Positions 5,368 through 60,440 of a DNA stretch of 60,440 nt are shown here, piece by piece. Position numbers and translations under genes: made by a program. Origin of the DNA: Candidatus Sulfomarinibacteraceae bacterium (lineage in GTDB: Bacteria > Chloroflexota > Limnocylindria > Limnocylindrales > CSP1-4); NCBI GenBank assembly GCA_035466655.1, contig DATIUS010000052.1:1-60440 (forward strand), given 5' to 3'. The notes beneath the pieces were generated by a model that searched no databases, was not told where the DNA came from, and saw nothing but the letters and a program-made list of their open reading frames with translations. Each line of letters begins with the position of its first letter. Positions within the stretch are counted from its first letter, which is position 1.

Positions 5368-6008
5368 TGCCCGTCGAGGAAGCCGTCCACCCAGCCGGCG
5401 ACCGACTCCGCGACCTCGGAGGCCCCGGCCGCGACCAGGTCCGCCCGATCGCCGAGGACCGACAGGATCCCGACCCCGAGCGCGCCGACGGCGCGGGCCA
5501 TCCGCATGTCGTCGAGAGCGTCGCCGACGTAGGCCGTCCGCTCCGGCACGGCCTCGAGGCCAAGCTCCGCGAGCGCCTTCCGGAGCGGCGCCGGATGCGG
5601 CTTCATCACCGGCAGGTCGCCGGCGCAGACCCGCACCGGGAGGTATCGCCCGAGCCCGGTCGAGACGAGCTGGGACTCCACGACGCCTCGTTCCCCGGCC
5701 GTCACGAGCCCCATCGAGAGGCCCGCGGCGGCGAGGCGCTCGAGCGCCTCGAGGGCGCCGTCGGTGACCTGGACCGTGCCGATGAGCCGCCGGTACGCAT
5801 CCAACCACCTGCCGGCCGCCTCGTCGATCTGCCCCGCCGGGACGCCGAGGCGCGCGTACATCAGCTGCCAATCCGGCGAGTACGCCTGGCGATAGGCGTC
5901 GAAGTCGAACGGGATGCCGTACGACGCGAGCACCTCGGCGTTGGCGAGGTTGATGGCGGGCAGCGAATCGACGAGCGTGCCGTCCCAGTCGAAGACGATG
6001 GCATCCAC
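5364..6008 (-). CDS. HAD-superfamily hydrolase (phosphoglycolate phosphatase-like, subfamily IA)
   Basis: Motif I DWDGTLVDS, motif II TAGER region, motif III/IV K...VGDALDD. Confidence 0.85.
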   Translation of the reverse strand: MDAIVFDWDGTLVDSLPAINLANAEVLASYGIPFDFDAYRQAYSPDWQLMYARLGVPAGQIDEAAGRWLDAYRRLIGTVQVTDGALEALERLAAAGLSMGLVTAGERGVVESQLVSTGLGRYLPVRVCAGDLPVMKPHPAPLRKALAELGLEAVPERTAYVGDALDDMRMARAVGALGVGILSVLGDRADLVAAGASEVAESVAGWVDGFLDGQ

Positions 6009-6087
6009 GTTGCCGATGCTATCGCCCCCCGGGCCCGGGCACCAAAGCCGGGTGGGCCCAGCCGGACCGGATGCTAGACTCGGGCTC

Positions 6088-8489: not shown

Positions 8490-11435
8490 TTGGCAGGATC
8501 TGTGGGGTTCGCAGAATGGGAACCGAACTTCACAAATCCTACCGGGGGACTGGTGATCTCGGGCGCTCTGCTCCGTCCTCGGCCGACCGACGCGACGCTC
8601 ACGGTGACGAAGGCCGCCCACGTGCTGGGTGTCCATCCGAACACGATCCGTGCGTGGAGCGACGCCGGGCGCCTCCGCTACTACCGGATCAACCCTCGCG
8701 GTGACCGGCGCTACCGGCTCGGCGACCTGCGGCGCTTCCTCGTGAGCGCGGCGAACGGGCCGGCCGTCGACGCGGAGCCCCGCGCCGGCACCGACGGGCA
8801 CCGGGCCAGCATCCGGGCGCGGGTCCCGGGGGCTCGACGCCCGGCCGGCGGCCCCGGCCGTGCCGGCCTCGATGTCCTGGCCGGGCTCGGGAAGATCGCC
8901 GCTTCTGTGATCGGGTCGGTGATCGACCCGGAGACCCTGCTCGGATCTGCCGCCCGGGTGATCCGGGAACGAGCCGGCCTGCGCCAGGTCTCCATCTGGC
9001 GGCTGGACGACACCCGCCTCGTGCCGGTCGGCGTCTCGGGGCCGCCCGGTGCTCGCCTCGTGGAGCGGCCACGCCACACGGGCGTCCTTGGCACGGCCCT
9101 CCGCAAACCCGCAGCGGCGGCGCCCGACGCAACCGGCCGCGAGATCGCGGCGGCGATCCCCGGAGCCGATGGGCCATGGGGCGTCCTCCTCGCGACGACG
9201 GAGGGCGACGGGCCGCCGGCTGCGGAGCTGCGCGATCTGGTCATTGCCGCCGCCGAGGCGATCGCGACGATCGTGCGGGCAGCCGGGGCCGCGGCCGAGG
9301 TCACCCACCACCTCCATCGAGCCGAAGCCCTCCAGCGGGTCGCCGGGGACATCGGGAGCCGCCTGGACCTGGACCAGATCCTGGCTGGCCTCGTGGAGCA
9401 CGCGGCCGGCCTGTTCGGCGGCGATCGCGCCGCGGTCCTGGTCACCCAGCCTGACGGCACGCGTCGCGCGGCGGCGTCGCGGGGCCTCTCGGCGGCCTAT
9501 CTCGCGGGGATCGAGAAGGTCACCAACCGAACCCTGGTCGCCTCCGCGCTCGAGGCAGCGGAGCCCGCCTTCTCGGTGAACTTCCGCGACGACCCGCGGG
9601 CCGCCGAGATCCGGGAGGCGGTCATCGAGGAGGGCTTCGACACGCTCTGCGTGGCCCCGCTCTTCGACGGCCCGGATCGTCCGGCGCTTGGCAGCCTGAA
9701 CATCTATCACGATCGTGCGCATCACTGGAGCCGAGACGAGATCGAGACCATGAGCGCGCTCGCGACCCAGGCCTCGGTCGCGATCCAGACGGCCAGGACG
9801 TACGCCCAGCTCGCGACCTGGGCGGCCCAGCTCCAGTCCATCCAGCAGCTCGGGACACGCCTGAGCCGGCTCGCCACGGTCGAGGAGATCGGGACGACGA
9901 TCGCGACGGAGCTTCAGCAGCTGATCGACTACCACAACGTCCGGGTCTACCGCGTCCGGGGGCACGACCTCGTGCCGGTCGCGATGCACGGCCGGATCGG
10001 CCAGTACGACCACGAGACCGCCGAGCAGATCCGGGTCCAGATCGGGACCGGAATCACCGGCTGGGTCGCCGAACACGGCGTGGCCCAGCTGCTCCACGAT
10101 GCGGCGGCCGACCCGCGGGCGGCCACCGTTCCGGGGACGGAGGCCGATCTCGACGAGTCGATGCTCCTCGCACCGATGATCCATGAGGACCAGGTCCTCG
10201 GCGTGCTCGTCCTCTCGAAGCTGGGGCTCCGCCAGTTCCGTGACGACGACCTTCGGCTGCTGGAGATCTACGCCAGCTTCGCCGGGCAGGCCATGGCGAA
10301 CGCCGACGCGACCGAGCGCCTGACTCGTCAATCGGCGACCCTCGAGCGGCAGATCCGGGGCCAGCGCGAGCTTCTCCAGATCACCGAGTCGATCCTGACC
10401 ACGCTCGACGTGCGGCGCATCCTCGAGGCCGTCGCCGATCGGCTCGGGGAGGTGGTCGGCTGGGACAACGTGGCGATCGAGCTGGTCGAAGGGGGCGACG
10501 GCGCGCTGAACCCGATCGTCGCCAAGGGCGCAGACGCCGCGTACTACCTCAAGCCGTGGCAGCCCGGCGAGGAGGGCCTCGCGACGTGGGTCCTCGCGAG
10601 GAACGAGCCGGTCCTGATCGCCGACCAGTACGGGGACCCGCGCGTGGCCCATCCCGACTCGGGGCCGGCCCACGGCAGCCTGATCTGCGTCCCGCTCCGC
10701 GGCCGGGACCGGGCGATCGGCGTGCTCACCCTGGAGCGAATCGGCGAGGGCCGCACGTTCACCGAGGAGGAGTTCGAGCTGGTGAAGCTCTTTGCGGCCC
10801 AGGTGTCGATCGCGATCCAGAACGCACGCGCGCACGGGGCGCTCGCCCGGCGGGCACAGACCGACGACCTGACCGGCCTGGGCAACCACGGCAGCTTCCG
10901 CGAGCGCCTCGCCGCGTCGGTGGTGGATGGGGCGCCGTTCAGCGTCCTGATGATCGATCTCGACGGGTTCAAGCTCGTCAACGACACGTTCGGCCACGCC
11001 GCGGGCAACGACCTCCTGGCCAAGATGGCTGCCGCGATCGTCGGGGCGAGCCGCGACGCCGACGCGGCGTTCCGGTACGGCGGCGACGAGTTCGCCGTGA
11101 TCCTCGCCGGGACGGACGCGGACCGGGCGGGCCCGGTGGCCGAGCGGATCCGCCGGTCCATCTCGCGGCTCGTCGGACGCGGGTCCGGCCTCCATGCCGC
11201 GGGCCTCCGGCTCGACGCCTCGGCCGGCGTCGCGACGTACCCGGTGGACGGATCGACAGCGGACGAAATCCTGCTCGCCGCCGACCGCGCCTGCTTCGTC
11301 GCGAAGCGGAGCGGCGGTGGACGTGTCGCGACCGCCGCCCAGGGACTGACCCTTGCCGGGGCGTTCGCGCTCCAGGTGCCGACCCCGATCGATCCCGCGC
11401 CCGGGGGCGACGCCGAGGCGCCGGCGGTGCTCTGA
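8490..11435 (+). CDS. Multidomain signalling protein: N-terminal MerR/excisionase-type HTH, four GAF domains, C-terminal GGDEF diguanylate cyclase
   Basis: HTH: LTVTKAAHVLGVHPNTIRAWSDAGRLRYYRINPRGDRRYRLGDLRRFL. Four GAF-like blocks each end in an ...SVAIQ(T/N)A-type helix. GGDEF domain: DDLTGLGNHGSF...DLDGFKLVNDTFGHAAGN...RDADAAFRYGGDEFAV, with an RxxD I-site five residues upstream of GGDEF. Start uncertain: TTG 8490 or a GTG about 60 nt downstream. Confidence 0.9.
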   Translation: MAGSVGFAEWEPNFTNPTGGLVISGALLRPRPTDATLTVTKAAHVLGVHPNTIRAWSDAGRLRYYRINPRGDRRYRLGDLRRFLVSAANGPAVDAEPRAGTDGHRASIRARVPGARRPAGGPGRAGLDVLAGLGKIAASVIGSVIDPETLLGSAARVIRERAGLRQVSIWRLDDTRLVPVGVSGPPGARLVERPRHTGVLGTALRKPAAAAPDATGREIAAAIPGADGPWGVLLATTEGDGPPAAELRDLVIAAAEAIATIVRAAGAAAEVTHHLHRAEALQRVAGDIGSRLDLDQILAGLVEHAAGLFGGDRAAVLVTQPDGTRRAAASRGLSAAYLAGIEKVTNRTLVASALEAAEPAFSVNFRDDPRAAEIREAVIEEGFDTLCVAPLFDGPDRPALGSLNIYHDRAHHWSRDEIETMSALATQASVAIQTARTYAQLATWAAQLQSIQQLGTRLSRLATVEEIGTTIATELQQLIDYHNVRVYRVRGHDLVPVAMHGRIGQYDHETAEQIRVQIGTGITGWVAEHGVAQLLHDAAADPRAATVPGTEADLDESMLLAPMIHEDQVLGVLVLSKLGLRQFRDDDLRLLEIYASFAGQAMANADATERLTRQSATLERQIRGQRELLQITESILTTLDVRRILEAVADRLGEVVGWDNVAIELVEGGDGALNPIVAKGADAAYYLKPWQPGEEGLATWVLARNEPVLIADQYGDPRVAHPDSGPAHGSLICVPLRGRDRAIGVLTLERIGEGRTFTEEEFELVKLFAAQVSIAIQNARAHGALARRAQTDDLTGLGNHGSFRERLAASVVDGAPFSVLMIDLDGFKLVNDTFGHAAGNDLLAKMAAAIVGASRDADAAFRYGGDEFAVILAGTDADRAGPVAERIRRSISRLVGRGSGLHAAGLRLDASAGVATYPVDGSTADEILLAADRACFVAKRSGGGRVATAAQGLTLAGAFALQVPTPIDPAPGGDAEAPAVL

Positions 11436-11518
11436 GGCGGGTGAGCCCGGGGAGCGGTCGGCGCCGGCTTCGCCCGCCCTCGTAACGCCGCGAACCCGAG
11501 TGGCGTCAGACTGGCGCC

Positions 11519-12757
11519 ATGGACGATCCCGAGCGCTCCGCGAGGTCCCCTCAGCCCGTGGCCACGTCCGCCGGCAACCCGCTCGCGACGCCGGCGGCGG
11601 CCGGCCTGCTCGCCGTCGTGCTCGTCGCCCTCGTCGGCGCGATCGTCGTGGCGCCAGGCCTCCTGCCGGGTTCGGCATCGGCCACGCCGGGCGGCGGCGC
11701 GGGCGTCTCGGCCGGATCCGCCGGCCCCGGCGGGACGTCGACCCCGGTGGGCTCGCCGGCGGATTCGCCCGGCTCCACCCCGATCCCGAGCTTCGTCCGG
11801 CCCACGCCGACGCCTGAGCCGACGTTCCGGAGCTATACCGTGCGGCCGGGTGACAGCCTCAATTCGATCGCGGACGCCTTCCTCACCTCCGCCCGCAGCC
11901 TCGCCTGGTGGAACCGCGGCACGTACCCGAACCTCGACCCGGAGTCCGAGGCGTACGACCCGGACCACATCGAGCCGGGCTGGGTGCTCGTCCTCATCCC
12001 CCGGGTGGTCGTCGACGACGCCGCGCCACCGACGCCCAGCCCGGGCCCGCCCTCGCCGGTGCCGACCCCGGCGGCGTCGGCCACGCCCTTCGCGACGCCC
12101 TTCGCCACGCCGACCGCCGGCGGCCCGGCGACCGTCATCAGCCACGGGCCCCGCGGCACCGACCAGGTGGCGCTGACCTTCGACATGGGCGGCCGGCTCG
12201 ATCCTGCGCTCGAGATCGTCGGGTGGCTGATCGACCACGAGATCCACGCGACGATCTTCCCGACCGGCAAGGCCGGCACGACCACCGCGGAAGGCCGCGC
12301 CGTGCTCGAGCTGGCCGCCACCCGGCCGGACCTGCTCGATGTGGGCAATCACTCGTGGGACCATCCTGATTTCACGACCCTGACGGCGGCGCAGGTCGCG
12401 GACCAGCTGGGCTCGACCGAGGACGCCGTCCGCGGTCTCGTCGGGACGTCGACGGCGCCCTGGTTCCGGCCGCCGTACGGCGCCTGGACGGAGGTGGTCA
12501 GGGAGCGAGTCGGAGTGGCCGGCTGGTCCCGGCTCGTGCTCTGGGACGTCGACACCATCGACTGGCGGAGCACGGCCGACGGCGGCCCGACCGCCGACGA
12601 CATCGTCACGAAGGTCGTCTCGACGGCGCAGGGCGGCTCGATCGTGCTCATGCACCTGGGCGGCTGGCACACCCTCGAGGCGCTACCCGGCCTGATCGCC
12701 GGCCTCGGCACGCGGCACCTGACGCCGGTGACCCTCGACGAGATGCTCGGCGGCTGA
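11519..12757 (+). CDS. Membrane-anchored LysM domain plus polysaccharide deacetylase (NodB homology) protein
   Basis: TM LLAVVLVALVGAIVVA. LysM: YTVRPGDSLNSIADAF. NodB motifs: ALTFDMG, HSWDHPDF, RPPYG, LMH. Confidence 0.9.
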   Translation: MDDPERSARSPQPVATSAGNPLATPAAAGLLAVVLVALVGAIVVAPGLLPGSASATPGGGAGVSAGSAGPGGTSTPVGSPADSPGSTPIPSFVRPTPTPEPTFRSYTVRPGDSLNSIADAFLTSARSLAWWNRGTYPNLDPESEAYDPDHIEPGWVLVLIPRVVVDDAAPPTPSPGPPSPVPTPAASATPFATPFATPTAGGPATVISHGPRGTDQVALTFDMGGRLDPALEIVGWLIDHEIHATIFPTGKAGTTTAEGRAVLELAATRPDLLDVGNHSWDHPDFTTLTAAQVADQLGSTEDAVRGLVGTSTAPWFRPPYGAWTEVVRERVGVAGWSRLVLWDVDTIDWRSTADGGPTADDIVTKVVSTAQGGSIVLMHLGGWHTLEALPGLIAGLGTRHLTPVTLDEMLGG

Positions 12758-56526: not shown

Positions 56527-57939
56527 GTGACGGCATCGGCCGCGGTGGATGCGGGCGCCCGAGAGGGCGTCGGCGCCGATCTCACGCTGGCCGACGGGTC
56601 GCGGATCGCGGTCGTCGGCAGCGGTCCTGCCGGCTCGCTGTTCACCTGCTTCCTGCTCGAGATGGCCGAACGGGTCGGCCTGAAGCTGGCCGTGGACATC
56701 TACGAGCCGAGGGCGTTCGCCCAGCCCGGACCGACCGGTTGCAACATGTGCGGCGGGATCATCTCCGAGACCCTCGTCCAGAACCTCGCCATCGACGGCG
56801 TCAACCTGCCGCCCGGGGTCATCCAACGGGGCATCGATTCGTACGTCCTCCACATGGACGTCGGCAGCGTCCGGATCGCGACCCCGGCCCAGGAGATGCG
56901 GATCGGGGCGGTCCACCGCGGCGGGGGACCGCGCGACGTCACCGAGTCGAGCTGGCGGAGCTTCGACGGGCACCTCCAGGGTCTCGCCCTCGAGCGCGGT
57001 GCGCGGCTCGTCGCGACCCGGGTCGACGAGGTCGGCCGCGAGGACGGGCGCCCGGTCCTCCGCGCGCGCGACGGAACGGCGGAGCGCTACGACCTCGTCG
57101 TGATCGCGGCCGGCGTCAACACCGGGATCCTCAAGACGTTCGAAGGCCTGGGCATCGGCTACGAACGCCCGAAGGTGACCAAGACGCTGATCCGTGAATA
57201 TCACCTCGGCGCCGAGGCGATCAACACCCACCTCGGCGCGTCCATGCACGTGTTCCTGCTCAACATCCCGCGCCTCGAGTTCGCCGCCCTGATCCCGAAG
57301 GGCGACTACGTGACGATGTGCCTCCTGGGCGAGGAGATCGACAACGCGCTCGGCGACCAGTTCGCCGACGCGCCCGAGGTGCGCGCGGTGATGCCGCCGG
57401 GCTGGCAGCCGAACGAGAAGTCGTGCCAGTGCATCCCGCACATCAACATCCACGGCGTCGCCAAGCCGTTCGCCGACCGGATCGTGTTCATCGGCGACAG
57501 CGGCGTCACCCGCCTCTACAAGGACGGGATCGGGGCGGCCTACCGGACCGCGAAGGCGGCCGCGCGCGTGGCCGTGTTCGAGGGCGTGTCCGAGGCGGCG
57601 TTCCGGGAGCACTACCTCCCGATCTGCCGCTCGATCATGACCGACAACCGGATCGGCGGGCTCGCCTTCATCCTCACTCGCGTCGCCCAGCGGGTCCGTC
57701 CGGTTCGCCGGCTCATCCTCCGGCAGACAGCCCGGGAGCAGGCGATCCGGGAGCGGAACGGAGGCTCCGGGAGCGCGGCCCTCAGCTCCATCCTGTGGGA
57801 CATGTTCTCGGGCAGTGCGCCCTACTCGGACATCTTCCGGCGCATGCTCAGCCCCGGGCTCATGGCCAGGCTCGCGCTGGGGGCGCCGGGCGCCCTGCTG
57901 CCGGGCCGGCGGCGGGAACCAGCGGAGGTCGCGCGATGA
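56527..57939 (+). CDS. FAD-dependent oxidoreductase (geranylgeranyl reductase/GR2-like fold)
   Basis: Dinucleotide motif IAVVGSGPAGS, CNMCGGII and IGDSG. GTG at 56527 is preceded by GGGAGGG. Confidence 0.8.
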   Translation: MTASAAVDAGAREGVGADLTLADGSRIAVVGSGPAGSLFTCFLLEMAERVGLKLAVDIYEPRAFAQPGPTGCNMCGGIISETLVQNLAIDGVNLPPGVIQRGIDSYVLHMDVGSVRIATPAQEMRIGAVHRGGGPRDVTESSWRSFDGHLQGLALERGARLVATRVDEVGREDGRPVLRARDGTAERYDLVVIAAGVNTGILKTFEGLGIGYERPKVTKTLIREYHLGAEAINTHLGASMHVFLLNIPRLEFAALIPKGDYVTMCLLGEEIDNALGDQFADAPEVRAVMPPGWQPNEKSCQCIPHINIHGVAKPFADRIVFIGDSGVTRLYKDGIGAAYRTAKAAARVAVFEGVSEAAFREHYLPICRSIMTDNRIGGLAFILTRVAQRVRPVRRLILRQTAREQAIRERNGGSGSAALSSILWDMFSGSAPYSDIFRRMLSPGLMARLALGAPGALLPGRRREPAEVAR

Positions 57940-58343
57940 TTGACCAGGGGGCCCTGGGCCGGGTCTACGAGCCCGGTGAGCTGATCGTTCGCCAGGGTGA
58001 CGTGGGCGACTGCATGTACGTGATCCAGGACGGCGAGGTGGAGATCCTGGCCGAGCGGGACGGCACGGAGGCGCTCCTGCGGGTGGCCGGCCGGAACGAG
58101 ATCCTCGGTGAGATGGCGGTCTTCGAGCACCAGCGTCGATCGGCCACGGTGCGGGCGCGGACCCGGGCGCGCGTGCTCACCCTCGACAAGCGGAATTTCC
58201 TGCGCCGCATCAACGAGGATCCGTCGCTTGCCTTCAACATCGTGGAGACGATGTCGCGCCGGGTCCGGGAGCTCAGCCAGGAAGTGGTCGAGCTCCAGGC
58301 GGCCCTCAAGGCGGCGCGCGACGAGGCGGGGGTCCGCGGCTAG
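57936..58343 (+). CDS. Stand-alone cyclic-nucleotide-binding (CAP effector) domain protein with a C-terminal helix
   Basis: GELIVRQGDVGDCMYVIQDGEVEI...LGEMAVFEHQRRSATVRA (the phosphate-binding-cassette-like FGE..RSAT region). ATGA overlap with the preceding gene. Confidence 0.85.
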   Translation: MIDQGALGRVYEPGELIVRQGDVGDCMYVIQDGEVEILAERDGTEALLRVAGRNEILGEMAVFEHQRRSATVRARTRARVLTLDKRNFLRRINEDPSLAFNIVETMSRRVRELSQEVVELQAALKAARDEAGVRG

Positions 58344-58432
58344 CGCCGCACGGCCGGGGCACCGCCGGGCGCTGTCGAGGACGACCTCCGGCCAGGCGAC
58401 GGCCAGCGCGAGCGAGACGACGATCCTGGGCG

Positions 58433-58600
58433 CCTCGACCGTCGTCGCCGATCCGACGGCCGTGGGTGCAGCAGCAACGACCGTTGTTGGCTGAGCAACG
58501 ACCGTGGCTCGGAATCCAACGACCGTAGGTGAAGGGGCACCGGCCGTCGTACCGAAGCCAACGACGGGCGTGGCAAGTCACGGCGCCCGTCGGCGCAACT
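58433..58600. repeat. Phased 21-nt tandem repeat array (about 8 units; core CAACGACCGTnG), apparently non-coding
   Basis: Exact 10-mers caacgaccgt at 58475, 58496 and 58517. Degenerate units at 58433 (cctcgaccgt), 58454 (cgacggccgt), 58538 (caccggccgt), 58559 (caacgacggg) and 58580. All are in strict 21-nt register. Confidence 0.8.
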
Positions 58601-58703
58601 CGGAACGTGCGTGCCGTACCAATCCGCGGCGGGTGGACCTAGCCTCGGGACAGATGCGTCGACGTCGAAACGACGGACGCTCCAACCGAGAAGGGACAGA
58701 CGG

Positions 58704-59033
58704 ATGGACGGCATCGAAGCGTTCTGGGGAGTCCTCTTCTGGGCTGCGCTGATCCTCGTGCTGCTGTACCTGGGTCCGATGCAGGCCCATCGCGCGCCGG
58801 GGCGGGTGACCCAGGTGGCGACCTGGCTCCTGCTCACGATCCTGTCGCTCGCCTACGGCGGGCTGCTGGTCTTCCTCGTCGTCCACCTCCTCCTGTTCAC
58901 CCTCGGAACGGGCGTGGCCGCCTTCGGGCTCTTCCTGAGCGCGGTCCTGCTGCTCGCCACGCCGGTCGGGTGGTGGATCGGCGTGCGAGCCGTGGCGCAC
59001 CGGATGGATCCCCATGGCCGGGCGCGCGGCTGA
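58704..59033 (+). CDS. Small membrane protein (3 TM), hypothetical
   Basis: ATG at 58704 is preceded by AGAAGGGACAGACGG. TM helices FWGVLFWAALILVLLYL, VATWLLLTILSLAYGGLLVFLVV and AAFGLFLSAVLLLATPV. Confidence 0.65.
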   Translation: MDGIEAFWGVLFWAALILVLLYLGPMQAHRAPGRVTQVATWLLLTILSLAYGGLLVFLVVHLLLFTLGTGVAAFGLFLSAVLLLATPVGWWIGVRAVAHRMDPHGRARG

Positions 59034-59070
59034 GGCCGGCAAGGAGCACGTGGCGGGGAACGGGTCGGAC

Positions 59071-59748
59071 ATGCGCGACGGGACGCTCCGCGTCCTGCTC
59101 GCGATCTTCGATTTCCCGCTCGTCAACGCCGGCCTCCGGGTGGCGATCGACACCGAGCCGGACATGCGGGTTGTCGGGGAGGCGACGAGCCAGGCCGGGC
59201 TGCGAACGCTCATCGAGACGATCCAGGCCGACGCGATCGTCACCGAGTGCCAGCCCTACCCCGACGGCCGCCCGGCCTTCCAGTCGATCGAGGTGGCCCG
59301 GAGCGTGACGCCGGCGCTCAAGATCCTCGCCCTCGAGTGCCGGACCGGGGCCGAGCAGTTCAGCCTGGCCCTGAAGGCCGGGGCTGATGGCTTCCTGACC
59401 AGGGAGGCCCAGCCGGTCGACGTGGTGGCCGCCCTCCGATGCATCCAGCGGGGCGAGACGTACGTGAGCCCGGCGCTCGTGACGAAACTGGTCAACACGT
59501 ACGTCCTGCGCAACCCAGAGCACTCCCTCGAGGACGCGTACGAAACGCTGAGCGACAAGGAGCGCGAGGTCCTCCTCCTTGCCGCCGTCGGGCACACCAA
59601 TCGCGAGATCGCCAAGGCCCTCCACCTGAGCGAGCGGGCCGTCCACTCCAAGCGCTCCAGCATGATGGAGAAGCTCGGCTTCCACGACCGGGTCGATCTC
59701 TTGAAGTTCGCCCTTCGTCGGGGTGTCGTGGGGGTCGGCGAGCTGTGA
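59071..59748 (+). CDS. Atypical NarL/LuxR-family regulator with a pseudo-receiver domain (no phospho-acceptor Asp)
   Basis: Aligned by eye against the canonical response regulator at 33265. Phospho-acceptor D becomes E (AIVTECQP), conserved S/T becomes E (LALEC), conserved K becomes R (FLTRE), and the acidic pair ED becomes FD. The LuxR HTH is intact: LSDKEREVLLLAAVGHTNREIAKALHLSERAVHSKRSSMMEKLG. Confidence 0.8.
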   Translation: MRDGTLRVLLAIFDFPLVNAGLRVAIDTEPDMRVVGEATSQAGLRTLIETIQADAIVTECQPYPDGRPAFQSIEVARSVTPALKILALECRTGAEQFSLALKAGADGFLTREAQPVDVVAALRCIQRGETYVSPALVTKLVNTYVLRNPEHSLEDAYETLSDKEREVLLLAAVGHTNREIAKALHLSERAVHSKRSSMMEKLGFHDRVDLLKFALRRGVVGVGEL

Positions 59749-60440
59749 CCGACCGGGATGGGGTTGGACAGGCCGCCGGGCGCTTCCGCTCCAGCCGTGC
59801 CTGGCTCGCGGTTCACTCGACCGCTTCCGGCGTCCGTCGCGGCATCGCCGCCGGCGCGCGCCGCATCCTCGCCGCGGGTCGAGGCCTCGCCGGGGCCATC
59901 CGCGACCTGGCGAGCCGCGTGGGGCGCGGCATCCGACGTGTCTGGTCAGCCGTCGCGGACTTCTGGCGGAGCGTCCGTCCGACCACTCGTCGAGGCGGCG
60001 CTCTCGGGATCCTCTGGATCATGGGGGGCGCGGTCTTCCTTGCGGTGGGCCTCTTCGTCGGCGCCGCCATCGCCTGGTCGCCGTACCTCGAGTCGGTCGT
60101 CCACCCCGACGCCAACCCACGAGCCTGGGCGGCCCTCGAGCCCGCCTTCGCCGGGACGAGCACCTGCGGGGACTGCCACGCGCCCGAGGCCGCGAAGGCG
60201 TCGGACGCCCGCCACGCCGGGATCGGCTGCGAAAGTTGCCACGGGGCGCTCCTCGACCACTCGCTGATCGACCCGGAGACGCCGGCCGGCGAGGTCGACC
60301 TCGACGTCCCGACCGACGACATCTGCGTCCGGTGCCATGCGGCCGCCGCCGGCCGCCCGACCGAGATCCGCCAGGTCATCGTCTCCGGCCACTACGTCGA
60401 GTTCTGCCTGCAGTGCCACGACCCGCACACGGGGATCTCG
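59745..60440 (+). CDS. Membrane-anchored multihaem c-type cytochrome (at least four CxxCH), 3-prime partial
   Basis: Absent from the ORF track because it has no stop in the window. My translation from GTG 59745 is open to 60440. TM: ALGILWIMGGAVFLAVGLFVGAAIAW. Haem motifs: CGDCH (60165..60179), CESCH (60228..60242), CVRCH (60324..60338) and CLQCH (60405..60419). The GTG overlaps the regulator stop as GTGA. An alternative start is ATG 60021. Confidence 0.8.
   Translation, partial: MTDRDGVGQAAGRFRSSRAWLAVHSTASGVRRGIAAGARRILAAGRGLAGAIRDLASRVGRGIRRVWSAVADFWRSVRPTTRRGGALGILWIMGGAVFLAVGLFVGAAIAWSPYLESVVHPDANPRAWAALEPAFAGTSTCGDCHAPEAAKASDARHAGIGCESCHGALLDHSLIDPETPAGEVDLDVPTDDICVRCHAAAAGRPTEIRQVIVSGHYVEFCLQCHDPHTGIS

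What the first reader, a model, noticed from the sequence alone, without database searches (positions are those of the whole stretch)
58433..58600. Strictly phased 21-nt tandem array (CAACGACCGTnG) upstream of the membrane protein / pseudo-response-regulator / multihaem cytochrome genes
Three perfect 10-mers sit at 58475, 58496 and 58517. Five degenerate units follow or precede them, and all keep an exact 21-nt register. The array lies in the 360-bp gap between the cNMP-binding gene (stop at 58343) and the next start (58704).

A 21-bp period is about two helical turns, so every core faces the same side of the DNA. That is the geometry of iterons or of cooperative regulator-binding arrays. 21 nt is also seven codons. 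The minus strand is open across the array and would encode a heptad peptide: YDGRC PF/TYGRW IP/SHGRC SA/NNGRC CC/THGRR. However, its third-position G/C is only about 64% by my own count of 44 codons, well below what I see in the real genes here. It has no RBS and runs antisense into the upstream gene. All three + frames hit stops.

I therefore favour a non-coding function: an operator array for the adjacent LuxR-type regulator, a VNTR-like contingency locus, or a structured RNA.
Basis: seen in the sequence. Interest (0 to 1): 0.6.

Follow-up and report, generated by a model that had tools for sequence, protein, structure and literature searches.

The report
Phased operator array before cytochrome operon
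A row of short mirror-image DNA sites, one every two turns of the helix, sits in front of a membrane-cytochrome operon in a whole family of uncultured soil Chloroflexota. It is most likely the docking platform of the operon's own phosphorylation-independent LuxR-type regulators, so it is a real element of a familiar kind.

Summary
Window 58433-58592 holds eight units of a 12-bp palindrome (C-R-ACG-NN-CGT-Y-G). Six keep an exact 21-bp register, and three are perfect 10-mers.

It is the only chain of three or more phased sites in the 2.67-Mb genome. The same array recurs upstream of the homologous operon in many genera of the family, probably Limnocylindria CSP1-4. The operon reads: small membrane protein, LuxR-type pseudo-response regulator RR1, multihaem cytochrome, FeS protein, NrfD, cytochrome, second regulator RR2.

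- **Phasing:** across 27 loci, 74% of site pairs lie within 1 bp of a multiple of 21.
- **Not coding:** steps of 20, 22 and 43 bp break any reading frame.
- **Not RNA hairpins:** the symmetric positions do not covary.
- **Not a VNTR:** only the cores are shared; the spacers differ.
- **Linked to the regulator:** the array follows the regulator gene, not the membrane-protein gene or the upstream gene.

Best reading (about 0.7): a cooperative, one-face operator array for RR1 and/or RR2, upstream of a weak promoter. The geometry matches BvgA dimers at Bordetella promoters. Binding, the transcription start and the sign of regulation are inferred, not shown.

The scan had noted 21-bp arrays beside atypical LuxR regulators on other DNA. 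This is a new member of a known kind, of moderate interest.

The parts
58433..58444 (.). Unit 1, degenerate palindromic site (CCTCGACCGTCG, 9.6 bits)
   Evidence: Weight-matrix scan; register listing.
58454..58465 (.). Unit 2 (CGACGGCCGTGG, 13.9 bits; its core ACGGCCGT is a perfect palindrome)
58475..58486 (.). Unit 3, the strongest site (CAACGACCGTTG, 17.6 of a maximum 18 bits)
58496..58507 (.). Unit 4 (CAACGACCGTGG, 15.3 bits)
58517..58528 (.). Unit 5 (CAACGACCGTAG, 14.6 bits)
58538..58549 (.). Unit 6, degenerate (CACCGGCCGTCG, 7.5 bits)
58562..58573 (.). Unit 7 (CGACGGGCGTGG, 12.5 bits), 24 bp after unit 6. It corresponds to the conserved gene-proximal strong site, which lies about 145 nt before the start codon in most orthologous loci.
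58581..58592 (.). Unit 8, weak (7.0 bits), 19 bp after unit 7
58611..58622 (+). Conserved GTGCCGTACC box with a poor -35-like hexamer (GTACCA or TACCAA), 17-18 nt before TAGCCT. The promoter assignment is inferred.
   Evidence: Alignment of 9 loci. The consensus promoter scan finds nothing, so this would be a weak promoter of the kind that depends on an activator.
58638..58647 (+). Box CCTAGCCTCG; its last nine bases (CTAGCCTCG) are invariant in the nine aligned loci of this type. It contains a -10-like TAGCCT. A second group of genera has CCCAGATTCGAC at the same place.
   Evidence: Its function is inferred.
58656..58680 (+). Conserved hairpin in the leader (GCGTC..ACGTCG-AAA-CGACG..GACGC), with one compensatory change in a relative (GCGTT/AACGC)
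58704..59033 (+). Small membrane protein of 109 aa with no Pfam family; first gene of the operon
59071..59748 (+). RR1, a NarL/LuxR-type regulator with a pseudo-receiver domain (phospho-acceptor Asp replaced by Glu, Thr/Ser by Glu, Lys by Arg) and a GerE helix-turn-helix. Candidate binder of the array.
59937..60440 (+). Multihaem cytochrome c gene, cut by the contig end. 59937 is where the protein match begins; the true start lies further upstream, after the RR1 stop at 59748. The operon continues on contig C38 of the same assembly (FeS protein, NrfD, RR2).

Best explanation
The array is a DNA-level operator: a row of two-fold symmetric binding sites (C-R-ACG-NN-CGT-Y-G), one every two helical turns, all on one face of the helix. 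It lies just upstream of a weak promoter that drives the operon small membrane protein - RR1 - multihaem cytochrome - FeS protein - NrfD - cytochrome - RR2.

The most likely binders are the operon's own NarL/LuxR-type regulators RR1 and/or RR2. [quoted passage not shown] The strong distal sites would nucleate binding, and dimers would then spread cooperatively over the weaker sites towards the -35 region. There the last dimer would recruit or block RNA polymerase. I favour activation, at about 60:40.

Both regulators lack the phosphorylation residues. Occupancy would therefore be set by regulator concentration (an autoregulatory loop) or by an unknown signal, possibly relayed by the co-encoded membrane protein.

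**Shown:** the sites, their symmetry, their phasing, their conservation, their uniqueness in the genome, their linkage to the regulator gene, and the pseudo-receiver.

**Inferred:** who binds, the transcription start, cooperativity, and the sign of regulation.
For: 1. **Conservation.** ACG-NN-CGT cores recur about 120-265 nt before the start codon of the homologous membrane-protein gene in almost all of 30 loci taken from 52 positive genomes of the family. The encoded protein falls to 32-47% identity, and the upstream gene is not conserved.
2. **Phasing.** Steps between neighbouring sites are 21 bp (32 times), 22 (8), 20 (4) and 42-43 (9). Of all site pairs, 101 of 136 lie within 1 bp of a multiple of 21, against 14% expected and about 0 in shuffles.
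3. **Symmetry.** Position -2 is C in 83% of sites and its mirror +9 is G in 86%; -1 is G/A and +8 is C/T. Mirror positions vary independently: 35 Watson-Crick pairs against 33.2 expected. That fits a protein dimer on DNA, not an RNA stem.
4. **Uniqueness.** It is the only chain of three or more phased sites in the genome. In 301 genomes of the family, a strict three-unit pattern hits 21 genomes, and 12 of those hits lie directly upstream of this operon. The reversed-pattern control hits 2 genomes.
5. **Linkage to the regulator.** All 23 loci with an adjacent RR1 have strong sites, and 22 have two or more. Two membrane-protein homologues without a regulator (L025, L034) have none. L095, L119 and G335:C21 have an array directly before an RR2-type regulator with no membrane-protein gene.
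6. **Recognition helix.** RR1 and RR2 are NarL/VraR/DevR-like. His and Arg in the recognition helix (H-x-x-R) are invariant in both.
7. **Precedent.** BvgA, of the same family, binds as head-to-head dimers every 22 bp on one face. A distal site nucleates binding, and the proximal dimer abuts the -35 element (PMC7250471).
8. **No room for an upstream promoter.** In several loci an apparent stop codon of the upstream gene lies only about 16-35 nt before the first unit.
Against: - There is no binding, footprint or expression data.
- RR1's recognition helix varies between genera (H-SK-R, H-SV-R, H-NH-R, H-YN-R and others), yet the core motif does not. RR2's helix is invariant (H-NY-R), but RR2 is unlinked in genus g8.
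- Four g8 genomes have a stand-alone RR2-type gene with no array upstream. Which regulator binds is therefore unresolved.
- The A/T-rich 5' flank (aTTCC) has no mirror on the 3' side, so each unit has a direction that a plain homodimer site does not explain.
- A dedicated regulator encoded elsewhere in the genome cannot be excluded.
Confidence: 0.7

Rival explanations
1. The array is an operator, but for a dedicated DNA-binding protein encoded elsewhere, for example a redox or metal sensor. RR1 and RR2 act at other sites, such as the invariant CTAGCCTCG / GTGCCGT boxes next to the promoter.
For: RR1's recognition helix varies while the core motif is constant. Separate boxes near the promoter are conserved more strongly than an ordinary -10 element. 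Stand-alone RR2-type genes in four genomes lack an array.
Against: The array occurs once per genome, and regulators with a single target are usually encoded beside it. The array follows the regulator gene with or without the membrane-protein gene. No other DNA-binding gene is conserved at the locus.
Confidence: 0.15
2. The array is transcribed as part of a long 5' leader and acts as RNA: a row of small hairpins or single-stranded motifs read by an RNA-binding protein, or an attenuator.
For: Each unit could form a 4-bp stem with a tetraloop (CGAC-GACC-GUCG). A conserved hairpin does exist further downstream in the leader (58656-58680).
Against: No Rfam family comes near its threshold. The fold z-score is -1.44. 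The mirrored positions do not covary. The sites are equally good on both strands. Tolerance of 20-22 nt steps together with 42-43 nt skips fits helical phasing. In several loci the upstream gene appears to end 16-35 nt before the first unit.
Confidence: 0.07
3. The array is a VNTR-like contingency locus, or it encodes the minus-strand heptad peptide.
For: The minus strand is open (ORF 58306-58581). The number of units differs between relatives, and L191 lacks three whole units that L189 and L190 have.
Against: In 12 of 25 loci the cores sit in different codon phases. Open frames are everywhere in DNA of 72% GC. GC3 is 0.65 against 0.91-0.93 in real genes. The spacers are not identical, so slipped-strand mispairing is unlikely.
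Confidence: 0.03
4. The array is a set of plasmid-type iterons or a partition centromere.
For: A period of 21-22 bp is typical of iterons.
Against: It sits at the same chromosomal place, before the same operon, across genera. No rep or par genes are nearby. The units are palindromes with variable spacers, not direct repeats.
Confidence: 0.01

Closest known systems
BvgA (NarL/FixJ family) at the Bordetella promoters Pfha and Pptx
   Same: Head-to-head dimers sit on inverted-repeat sites with centres 22 bp apart (two helical turns), all on one face of the DNA. Three to six dimers bind per promoter. A distal site nucleates cooperative spreading, and the proximal dimer abuts the -35 element (PMC7250471). 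Here there are 2-8 palindromic sites at 20-22 bp, the strong ones lie distally, the weak ones lie towards a poor -35-like box, and a regulator of the same family is encoded in the operon.
   Different: BvgA must be phosphorylated by BvgS, whereas RR1 and RR2 lack the acceptor Asp, the Thr/Ser and the Lys. The site sequence is unrelated: CGACG-NN-CGTCG, against an A/T-rich inverted heptad. Binding here is inferred only. There is one target per genome, not a regulon.
DevR/DosR tandem Dev boxes of Mycobacterium tuberculosis, and NarL 7-2-7 sites of E. coli (from my own knowledge, not checked in a paper here)
   Same: These are NarL-family dimers on palindromes. Adjacent boxes about two helical turns apart bind cooperatively, and the proximal box overlaps the -35 element. 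RR1 matches the solved structures of NarL (1A04) and DevR (3C3W).
   Different: Those promoters usually have two to four boxes, their regulators depend on phosphorylation, and the consensus sequences differ.
BldM and WhiI, orphan atypical response regulators of Streptomyces (PMC4125116, listed; details from my own knowledge)
   Same: Two NarL-family atypical regulators work as a homodimer and as a heterodimer with different site preferences. Here two paralogous pseudo-receiver regulators sit in one operon. In three genomes their receiver domains are 99-100% identical while their recognition helices are kept different.
   Different: BldM and WhiI are not encoded together. Their sites are single 16-bp palindromes or composite sites, not phased arrays. 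Heterodimer formation is only a hypothesis here.
Alternative complex III / NrfBCD-type modules (multihaem cytochrome + FeS protein + NrfD)
   Same: The regulated genes encode a multihaem cytochrome, a 4Fe-4S protein, an NrfD-type membrane subunit and a further cytochrome c.
   Different: This concerns the cargo of the operon, not the array. No molybdopterin subunit was seen, and I did not test membership of any named complex.

Membership tests
Phased multi-dimer operator of a NarL/FixJ (LuxR-type) regulator (BvgA type) | Each site is an inverted repeat with two-fold symmetry | tested here: met
   Weight matrix from 72-85 sites gives C-R-ACG-NN-CGT-Y-G, with mirror-image frequencies at -2/+9 and -1/+8. 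The 5' flank aTTCC has no mirror.
Phased multi-dimer operator of a NarL/FixJ (LuxR-type) regulator (BvgA type) | Centres about two helical turns apart (21-22 bp), on the same face | tested here: met
   Steps of 21 bp (32 times), 22 (8), 20 (4) and 42-43 (9). 74% of all pairs are in phase, against 14% expected.
Phased multi-dimer operator of a NarL/FixJ (LuxR-type) regulator (BvgA type) | The array runs from strong distal sites to weak sites that abut the -35 element of the regulated promoter | tested here: inconclusive
   Weak in-phase sites follow the last strong site, and a poor -35-like box plus TAGCCT follow.
Phased multi-dimer operator of a NarL/FixJ (LuxR-type) regulator (BvgA type) | A regulator of that family binds the sites | not testable with these tools
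   Only genetic linkage is available: the array is inherited with the regulator gene. EMSA or footprinting is needed.
Phased multi-dimer operator of a NarL/FixJ (LuxR-type) regulator (BvgA type) | Binding is driven by phosphorylation of the receiver Asp | tested here: not met
   Alignment to NarL and VraR shows the acceptor Asp replaced by Glu, Thr/Ser by Glu and Lys by Arg in RR1. The same holds in all RR1 and RR2 sequences examined.
Cis-regulatory RNA | Match to a described family, or a structure supported by covariation or stability | tested here: not met
   The best Rfam hit scores 15.5 bits against a threshold of 37. Fold z-score -1.44. No covariation.
Protein-coding heptad repeat | One reading frame is kept across the array in relatives, with gene-like codon usage | tested here: not met
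   Cores fall in different codon phases in 12 of 25 loci. GC3 is 0.65 against 0.91-0.93.
VNTR / contingency locus | Near-identical tandem units prone to slippage, with length polymorphism within populations | tested here: not met
   Only the 12-bp cores are shared; TRF reports 78% matches over 2.5 copies. Within-population variation could not be tested.
Plasmid iterons / partition site | Direct repeats next to rep or par genes on a mobile replicon | tested here: not met
   The context is chromosomal and syntenic across genera, with no rep or par genes.

The most novel reading that the evidence does not exclude
The array is a polymerisation track for a pair of phosphorylation-independent LuxR-type pseudo-response regulators, RR1 and RR2. 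In this reading they act as a heterodimer. Their receiver domains are kept identical by gene conversion, so that they dimerise or sense one signal. Their recognition helices are kept different. One helix (H-NY-R) reads the invariant core, and the other reads lineage-specific flanks. Together with the co-encoded small membrane protein, this would form a switch without a kinase, giving an all-or-none response for a multihaem cytochrome/NrfCD electron-transfer module in uncultured soil Chloroflexota.
Probability: 0.2. Interest if true: 0.6.

Novelty: new member of a known kind. Interest (0 to 1): 0.42.

Why it matters
Limnocylindria of the CSP1-4 type are abundant in soils and sediments, have no cultured member, and almost nothing is known of their gene regulation.

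This array gives a precise, testable cis-element with a short list of two candidate regulators, for an operon that encodes a multihaem cytochrome / FeS / NrfD electron-transfer module. It also shows that the BvgA-style layout, with dimers every two turns on one face, occurs in a distant phylum with regulators that cannot be phosphorylated. That raises the question of what sets occupancy.

The element could serve as a marker for this operon in metagenomes. It could also serve as a compact cooperative promoter part if the regulators prove to work in a heterologous host.

Tried and rejected
- **Rfam** scan of 57800-59200 at permissive E-values: only noise.
- **RNA fold** of 58430-58710: z-score -1.44.
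- **Consensus scan** for sigma-70 promoters and terminators: nothing found.
- **Pattern scan of all GTDB species genomes** for three phased cores. Only 7 of these carry the operon. The rest are unrelated tandem repeats in many phyla, so the pattern alone is not specific outside this family.
- **Test of autoregulation.** I asked whether the array always precedes stand-alone RR2-type genes. It does in G335 (C10, C21) and in the L119 genome. It does not in G090, G118, G240 or G251. This is only partial support.
- **Test of co-variation.** I asked whether RR1 helix classes go with different core sequences. No clear relation was found.
- **Same-strain contigs.** An exact-anchor scan of metagenome contigs found none. 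A protein-seeded scan gave three loci of a related species only.
- **Readings rejected:** coding, VNTR, iteron and cNMP-protein-operator. The cNMP-domain protein has no DNA-binding domain and is not syntenic in relatives.

Full report
**1. The observation**

The sequence between the cNMP-domain gene (stop at 58343) and the next start codon (ATG at 58704) holds the 10-mer CAACGACCGT at 58475, 58496 and 58517. Shuffles of the window give 0.09 copies on average. The whole 2.67-Mb assembly (72% GC, 329 contigs; the window is the whole of contig C52) has eight copies, three of them here.

Read in a 21-nt register, further units with two mismatches lie at 58433, 58454, 58538 and 58559. A weight matrix derived from orthologous loci places 12-mers at 58433, 58454, 58475, 58496, 58517, 58538, 58562 and 58581. 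Six units are therefore in exact register, and the last two are offset by +3 and -2.

The minus strand is open, all plus-strand frames have stops, and the GC3 of the minus-strand frame is about 0.65.

**2. What the unit is**

I aligned 72-85 cores from relatives. The conserved part is a 12-bp palindrome, C-(G/a/c)-A-C-G-(A/G/c)-(C/g)-C-G-T-(C/T)-G. The rest of each 21-bp unit is free, apart from an A/T-rich aTTCC just upstream of the core.

Mirror positions have mirror-image base frequencies but vary independently of each other. At -1/+8 there are 35 Watson-Crick combinations, against 33.2 expected under independence. That is what a two-fold symmetric protein dimer on DNA produces. It is not what an RNA stem produces.

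**3. Conservation and context**

The upstream gene is not part of the unit. In the closest relative that has the element (G006), the cNMP-domain gene lies on another contig and the array sits in a divergent intergenic region.

The downstream gene encodes a 109-aa membrane protein with no Pfam family. It has homologues in 52 of 301 sampled genomes of the same family, spread over 15 of 49 genera. Upstream of nearly all of the 30 loci fetched, at about -265 to -120 from the start codon, lie 2-7 ACG-NN-CGT cores. This holds even where the protein is only 32-47% identical.

The operon reads: membrane protein - RR1 - multihaem cytochrome c - 4Fe-4S protein - NrfD - small cytochrome c - RR2. In the window's own genome, the part beyond the contig end lies on contig C38.

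Record titles of matching public contigs read 'Chloroflexi bacterium RBG_16_70_13' and 'uncultured Chloroflexia bacterium'. The sister family in the same order has genomes of about 1.1 Mb. Together these fit Limnocylindria, family CSP1-4, as described in PMC13212565. This placement is an inference.

**4. Phasing**

Steps between neighbouring sites in about 27 loci are 21 bp (32 times), 22 (8), 20 (4) and 42-43 (9). Taking all pairs of sites of at least 9 bits, 101 of 136 lie within 1 bp of a multiple of 21. The expectation is 14%, and composition-matched shuffles give essentially no sites.

Steps of 20, 22 and 43 bp destroy any reading frame. In 12 of 25 loci the cores fall in different codon phases. 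The period is therefore helical, not codon-based.

Three metagenome contigs of one related lineage show that unit number changes by whole units. L191 lacks three distal units, about 64 bp, that L189 and L190 have.

**5. Specificity**

The window's genome has 1195 single sites of at least 10 bits, but only one chain of three or more phased sites, and that is this locus.

Across 301 family genomes, a strict pattern of three cores with 12-14-nt gaps hits 21 genomes. In 12 of them the hit is directly upstream of the membrane-protein gene. Most others are perfect tandem repeats of unrelated sequence. The reversed-pattern control hits 2 genomes.

The same pattern run over all GTDB species genomes is not specific outside the family.

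**6. What the array travels with**

- All 23 loci with an RR1 gene next to the membrane-protein gene have strong sites, and 22 have two or more.
- The two assessable membrane-protein homologues with no regulator beside them (L025, L034) have none.
- Conversely, in L095, L119 and G335 (contigs C10 and C21), an array lies directly before an RR2-type regulator gene with no membrane-protein gene. That gene is flanked by unrelated genes: a divergent GH18 lipoprotein and a convergent DsbA-like protein.

The array thus follows the regulator. One caution: four other genomes of that genus have a stand-alone RR2-type gene with no array.

**7. The regulators**

RR1 matches the solved structures of VraR, NarL, DevR and RcsB over its full length. 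Aligned to NarL, the acceptor Asp is Glu, the conserved Thr/Ser is Glu and the conserved Lys is Arg. The same replacements occur in every RR1 and RR2 examined.

In the recognition helix, His and Arg are invariant in both paralogues (H-x-x-R). The two residues between them are fixed as N-Y in RR2 and vary in RR1: SK, SI, SV, NH, SH, HL, HT, SR, YN, YH.

In three genomes (G317, G298, L102) the first 160 residues of RR1 and RR2 are 99-100% identical, while the helix-turn-helix parts are 82-88% identical. At the nucleotide level the genes are 95-97% identical overall. This points to gene conversion of the receiver half, with selection keeping the DNA-reading halves apart.

I cannot say which paralogue reads the cores, or whether both do as a heterodimer. 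The constant core fits the constant RR2 helix or the shared His/Arg. The constant linkage fits RR1.

**8. Position relative to the promoter (inferred)**

The last strong site lies about 145 nt before the start codon in most loci. Downstream of it come:

- weak in-phase sites;
- a conserved GTGCCGT(A/T)CC box;
- 17-18 nt later, the box CCTAGCCTCG, of which CTAGCCTCG is invariant in the nine aligned loci and which contains the -10-like TAGCCT (other genera have CCCAGATTCGAC there);
- a conserved hairpin;
- the ribosome-binding site.

A consensus promoter scan finds nothing, as expected for a promoter that depends on an activator. In several loci an apparent stop codon of the upstream gene lies only 16-35 nt before the first unit. 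That leaves no room for a promoter upstream of the array.

If transcription starts about 7 nt after TAGCCT, near 58652, the site centres fall near -213, -192, -171, -150, -129, -108 and -84. The next in-phase positions would be about -63 and -42. These numbers depend on an unverified start.

**9. Comparison with what is known**

BvgA of Bordetella is a NarL/FixJ-family regulator. It binds Pfha and Pptx as three and six head-to-head dimers respectively. The centres are 22 bp apart, all on one face. A distal site acts as the nucleation point, and the last dimer abuts the -35 element (PMC7250471).

The layout here is the same in symmetry, period, number of sites and gradient of strength. It differs in site sequence, in having a single target, and in using regulators that cannot be phosphorylated.

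The pair of atypical regulators recalls BldM and WhiI of Streptomyces (PMC4125116). I therefore file the element as working like a BvgA-type phased operator. Membership in the strict sense is untested, because binding by a NarL-family protein has not been shown. The phosphorylation feature was tested and is not met.

**10. Other readings**

- **RNA element.** No Rfam hit, a fold no more stable than shuffles, and no covariation. About 0.07.
- **Coding or VNTR.** Rejected on phase, codon usage and lack of unit identity. About 0.03.
- **Iterons or centromere.** Rejected on context. About 0.01.
- **A regulator encoded elsewhere.** Remains possible, at about 0.15.

**11. Limits**

The genomes are metagenome bins, related genomes are not independent samples, and the weight matrix was built from the same loci in which spacing was then measured. 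The spacing result holds nonetheless for exact ACG-NN-CGT cores alone.

**12. Earlier notes of the scan**

The scan had already recorded 21-bp phased arrays beside atypical LuxR regulators or before small FN3 genes in other phyla (e1-3210280, e1-1121445, e1-1504820). Two of those notes named BvgA as the closest known case. I did not test those loci. They gave me the lead to read the BvgA paper.

**13. Verdict**

This is a real, conserved, non-coding, helically phased operator array, and a new member of a known kind. It is of moderate interest, raised a little by the twin pseudo-receiver regulators that probably read it.

Noticed in passing
L043:6281-6982 and 10937-11698 (G317); L044 (G298); L102:639-1301 and 5394-6056: The two LuxR-type pseudo-response regulators of the operon (RR1 and RR2) are 99-100% identical over their first 160 residues in three genomes, but only 82-88% identical in the helix-turn-helix part. 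RR2's recognition helix (H-NY-R) is invariant across genera, while RR1's varies. This looks like gene conversion of the receiver half, with selection keeping the DNA-reading halves distinct.
   Followed up: partly
window 59937-60440 and contig C38 32126-36208 of the same assembly: The operon cut by the window's end continues at the end of contig C38, on the minus strand: the rest of the multihaem cytochrome, the FeS protein, NrfD and RR2. The two contig ends overlap within the cytochrome gene (residues 138-184 of the query) and probably join.
   Followed up: partly
window 58638-58647: The box CCTAGCCTCG lies 57-66 nt before the start codon, and its last nine bases (CTAGCCTCG) are invariant in the nine aligned loci. 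That is far stronger conservation than an ordinary -10 element shows. A second group of genera has CCCAGATTCGAC at the same place. It may be a separate recognition site, possibly for RR1 or for an alternative sigma factor.
   Followed up: no
window 58656-58680: A conserved hairpin in the presumed 5' leader (GCGTC..ACGTCG-AAA-CGACG..GACGC), with one compensatory change in G317 (GCGTT/AACGC). The other group of genera has a different conserved stem (CGTCGGGC..GCCCGACG) at the same place.
   Followed up: no
L180-L183 (G090, G118, G251, G240), about 250 to 100 nt upstream of the stand-alone RR2-type gene: A conserved non-coding stretch (..CCGAAGGGCCCGGGCCG..GGAGTCCCG..GCAACGCGACCGATGGCCC..) precedes the unlinked RR2-type regulator gene in genus g8. 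There is no palindrome array there. Its function is unknown.
   Followed up: no
G073:C4:19255-19325; G083:C27:33546-33613; G098:C137:3137-3184; G247:C64:2372-2423; G090:C13:109244-109293: Perfect or near-perfect tandem repeats of 20-22 bp that happen to contain ACG-NN-CGT, in other genomes of the family. They are unrelated to the operon. I did not check whether they are coding.
   Followed up: no
L097, L103, L108 (Thermoanaerobaculia MAG SMAG_U3429); L065, L066, L077, L126 (Anaerolineales MAG LaPlata-a_bin-2312); L057, L082, L111, L124 (Phycisphaeraceae MAG): Single genomes of unrelated phyla carry many separate loci that match the three-core 21-bp pattern, often again 63 bp further on. They look like dispersed repeat families, and none lies near a homologue of the operon.
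   Followed up: no
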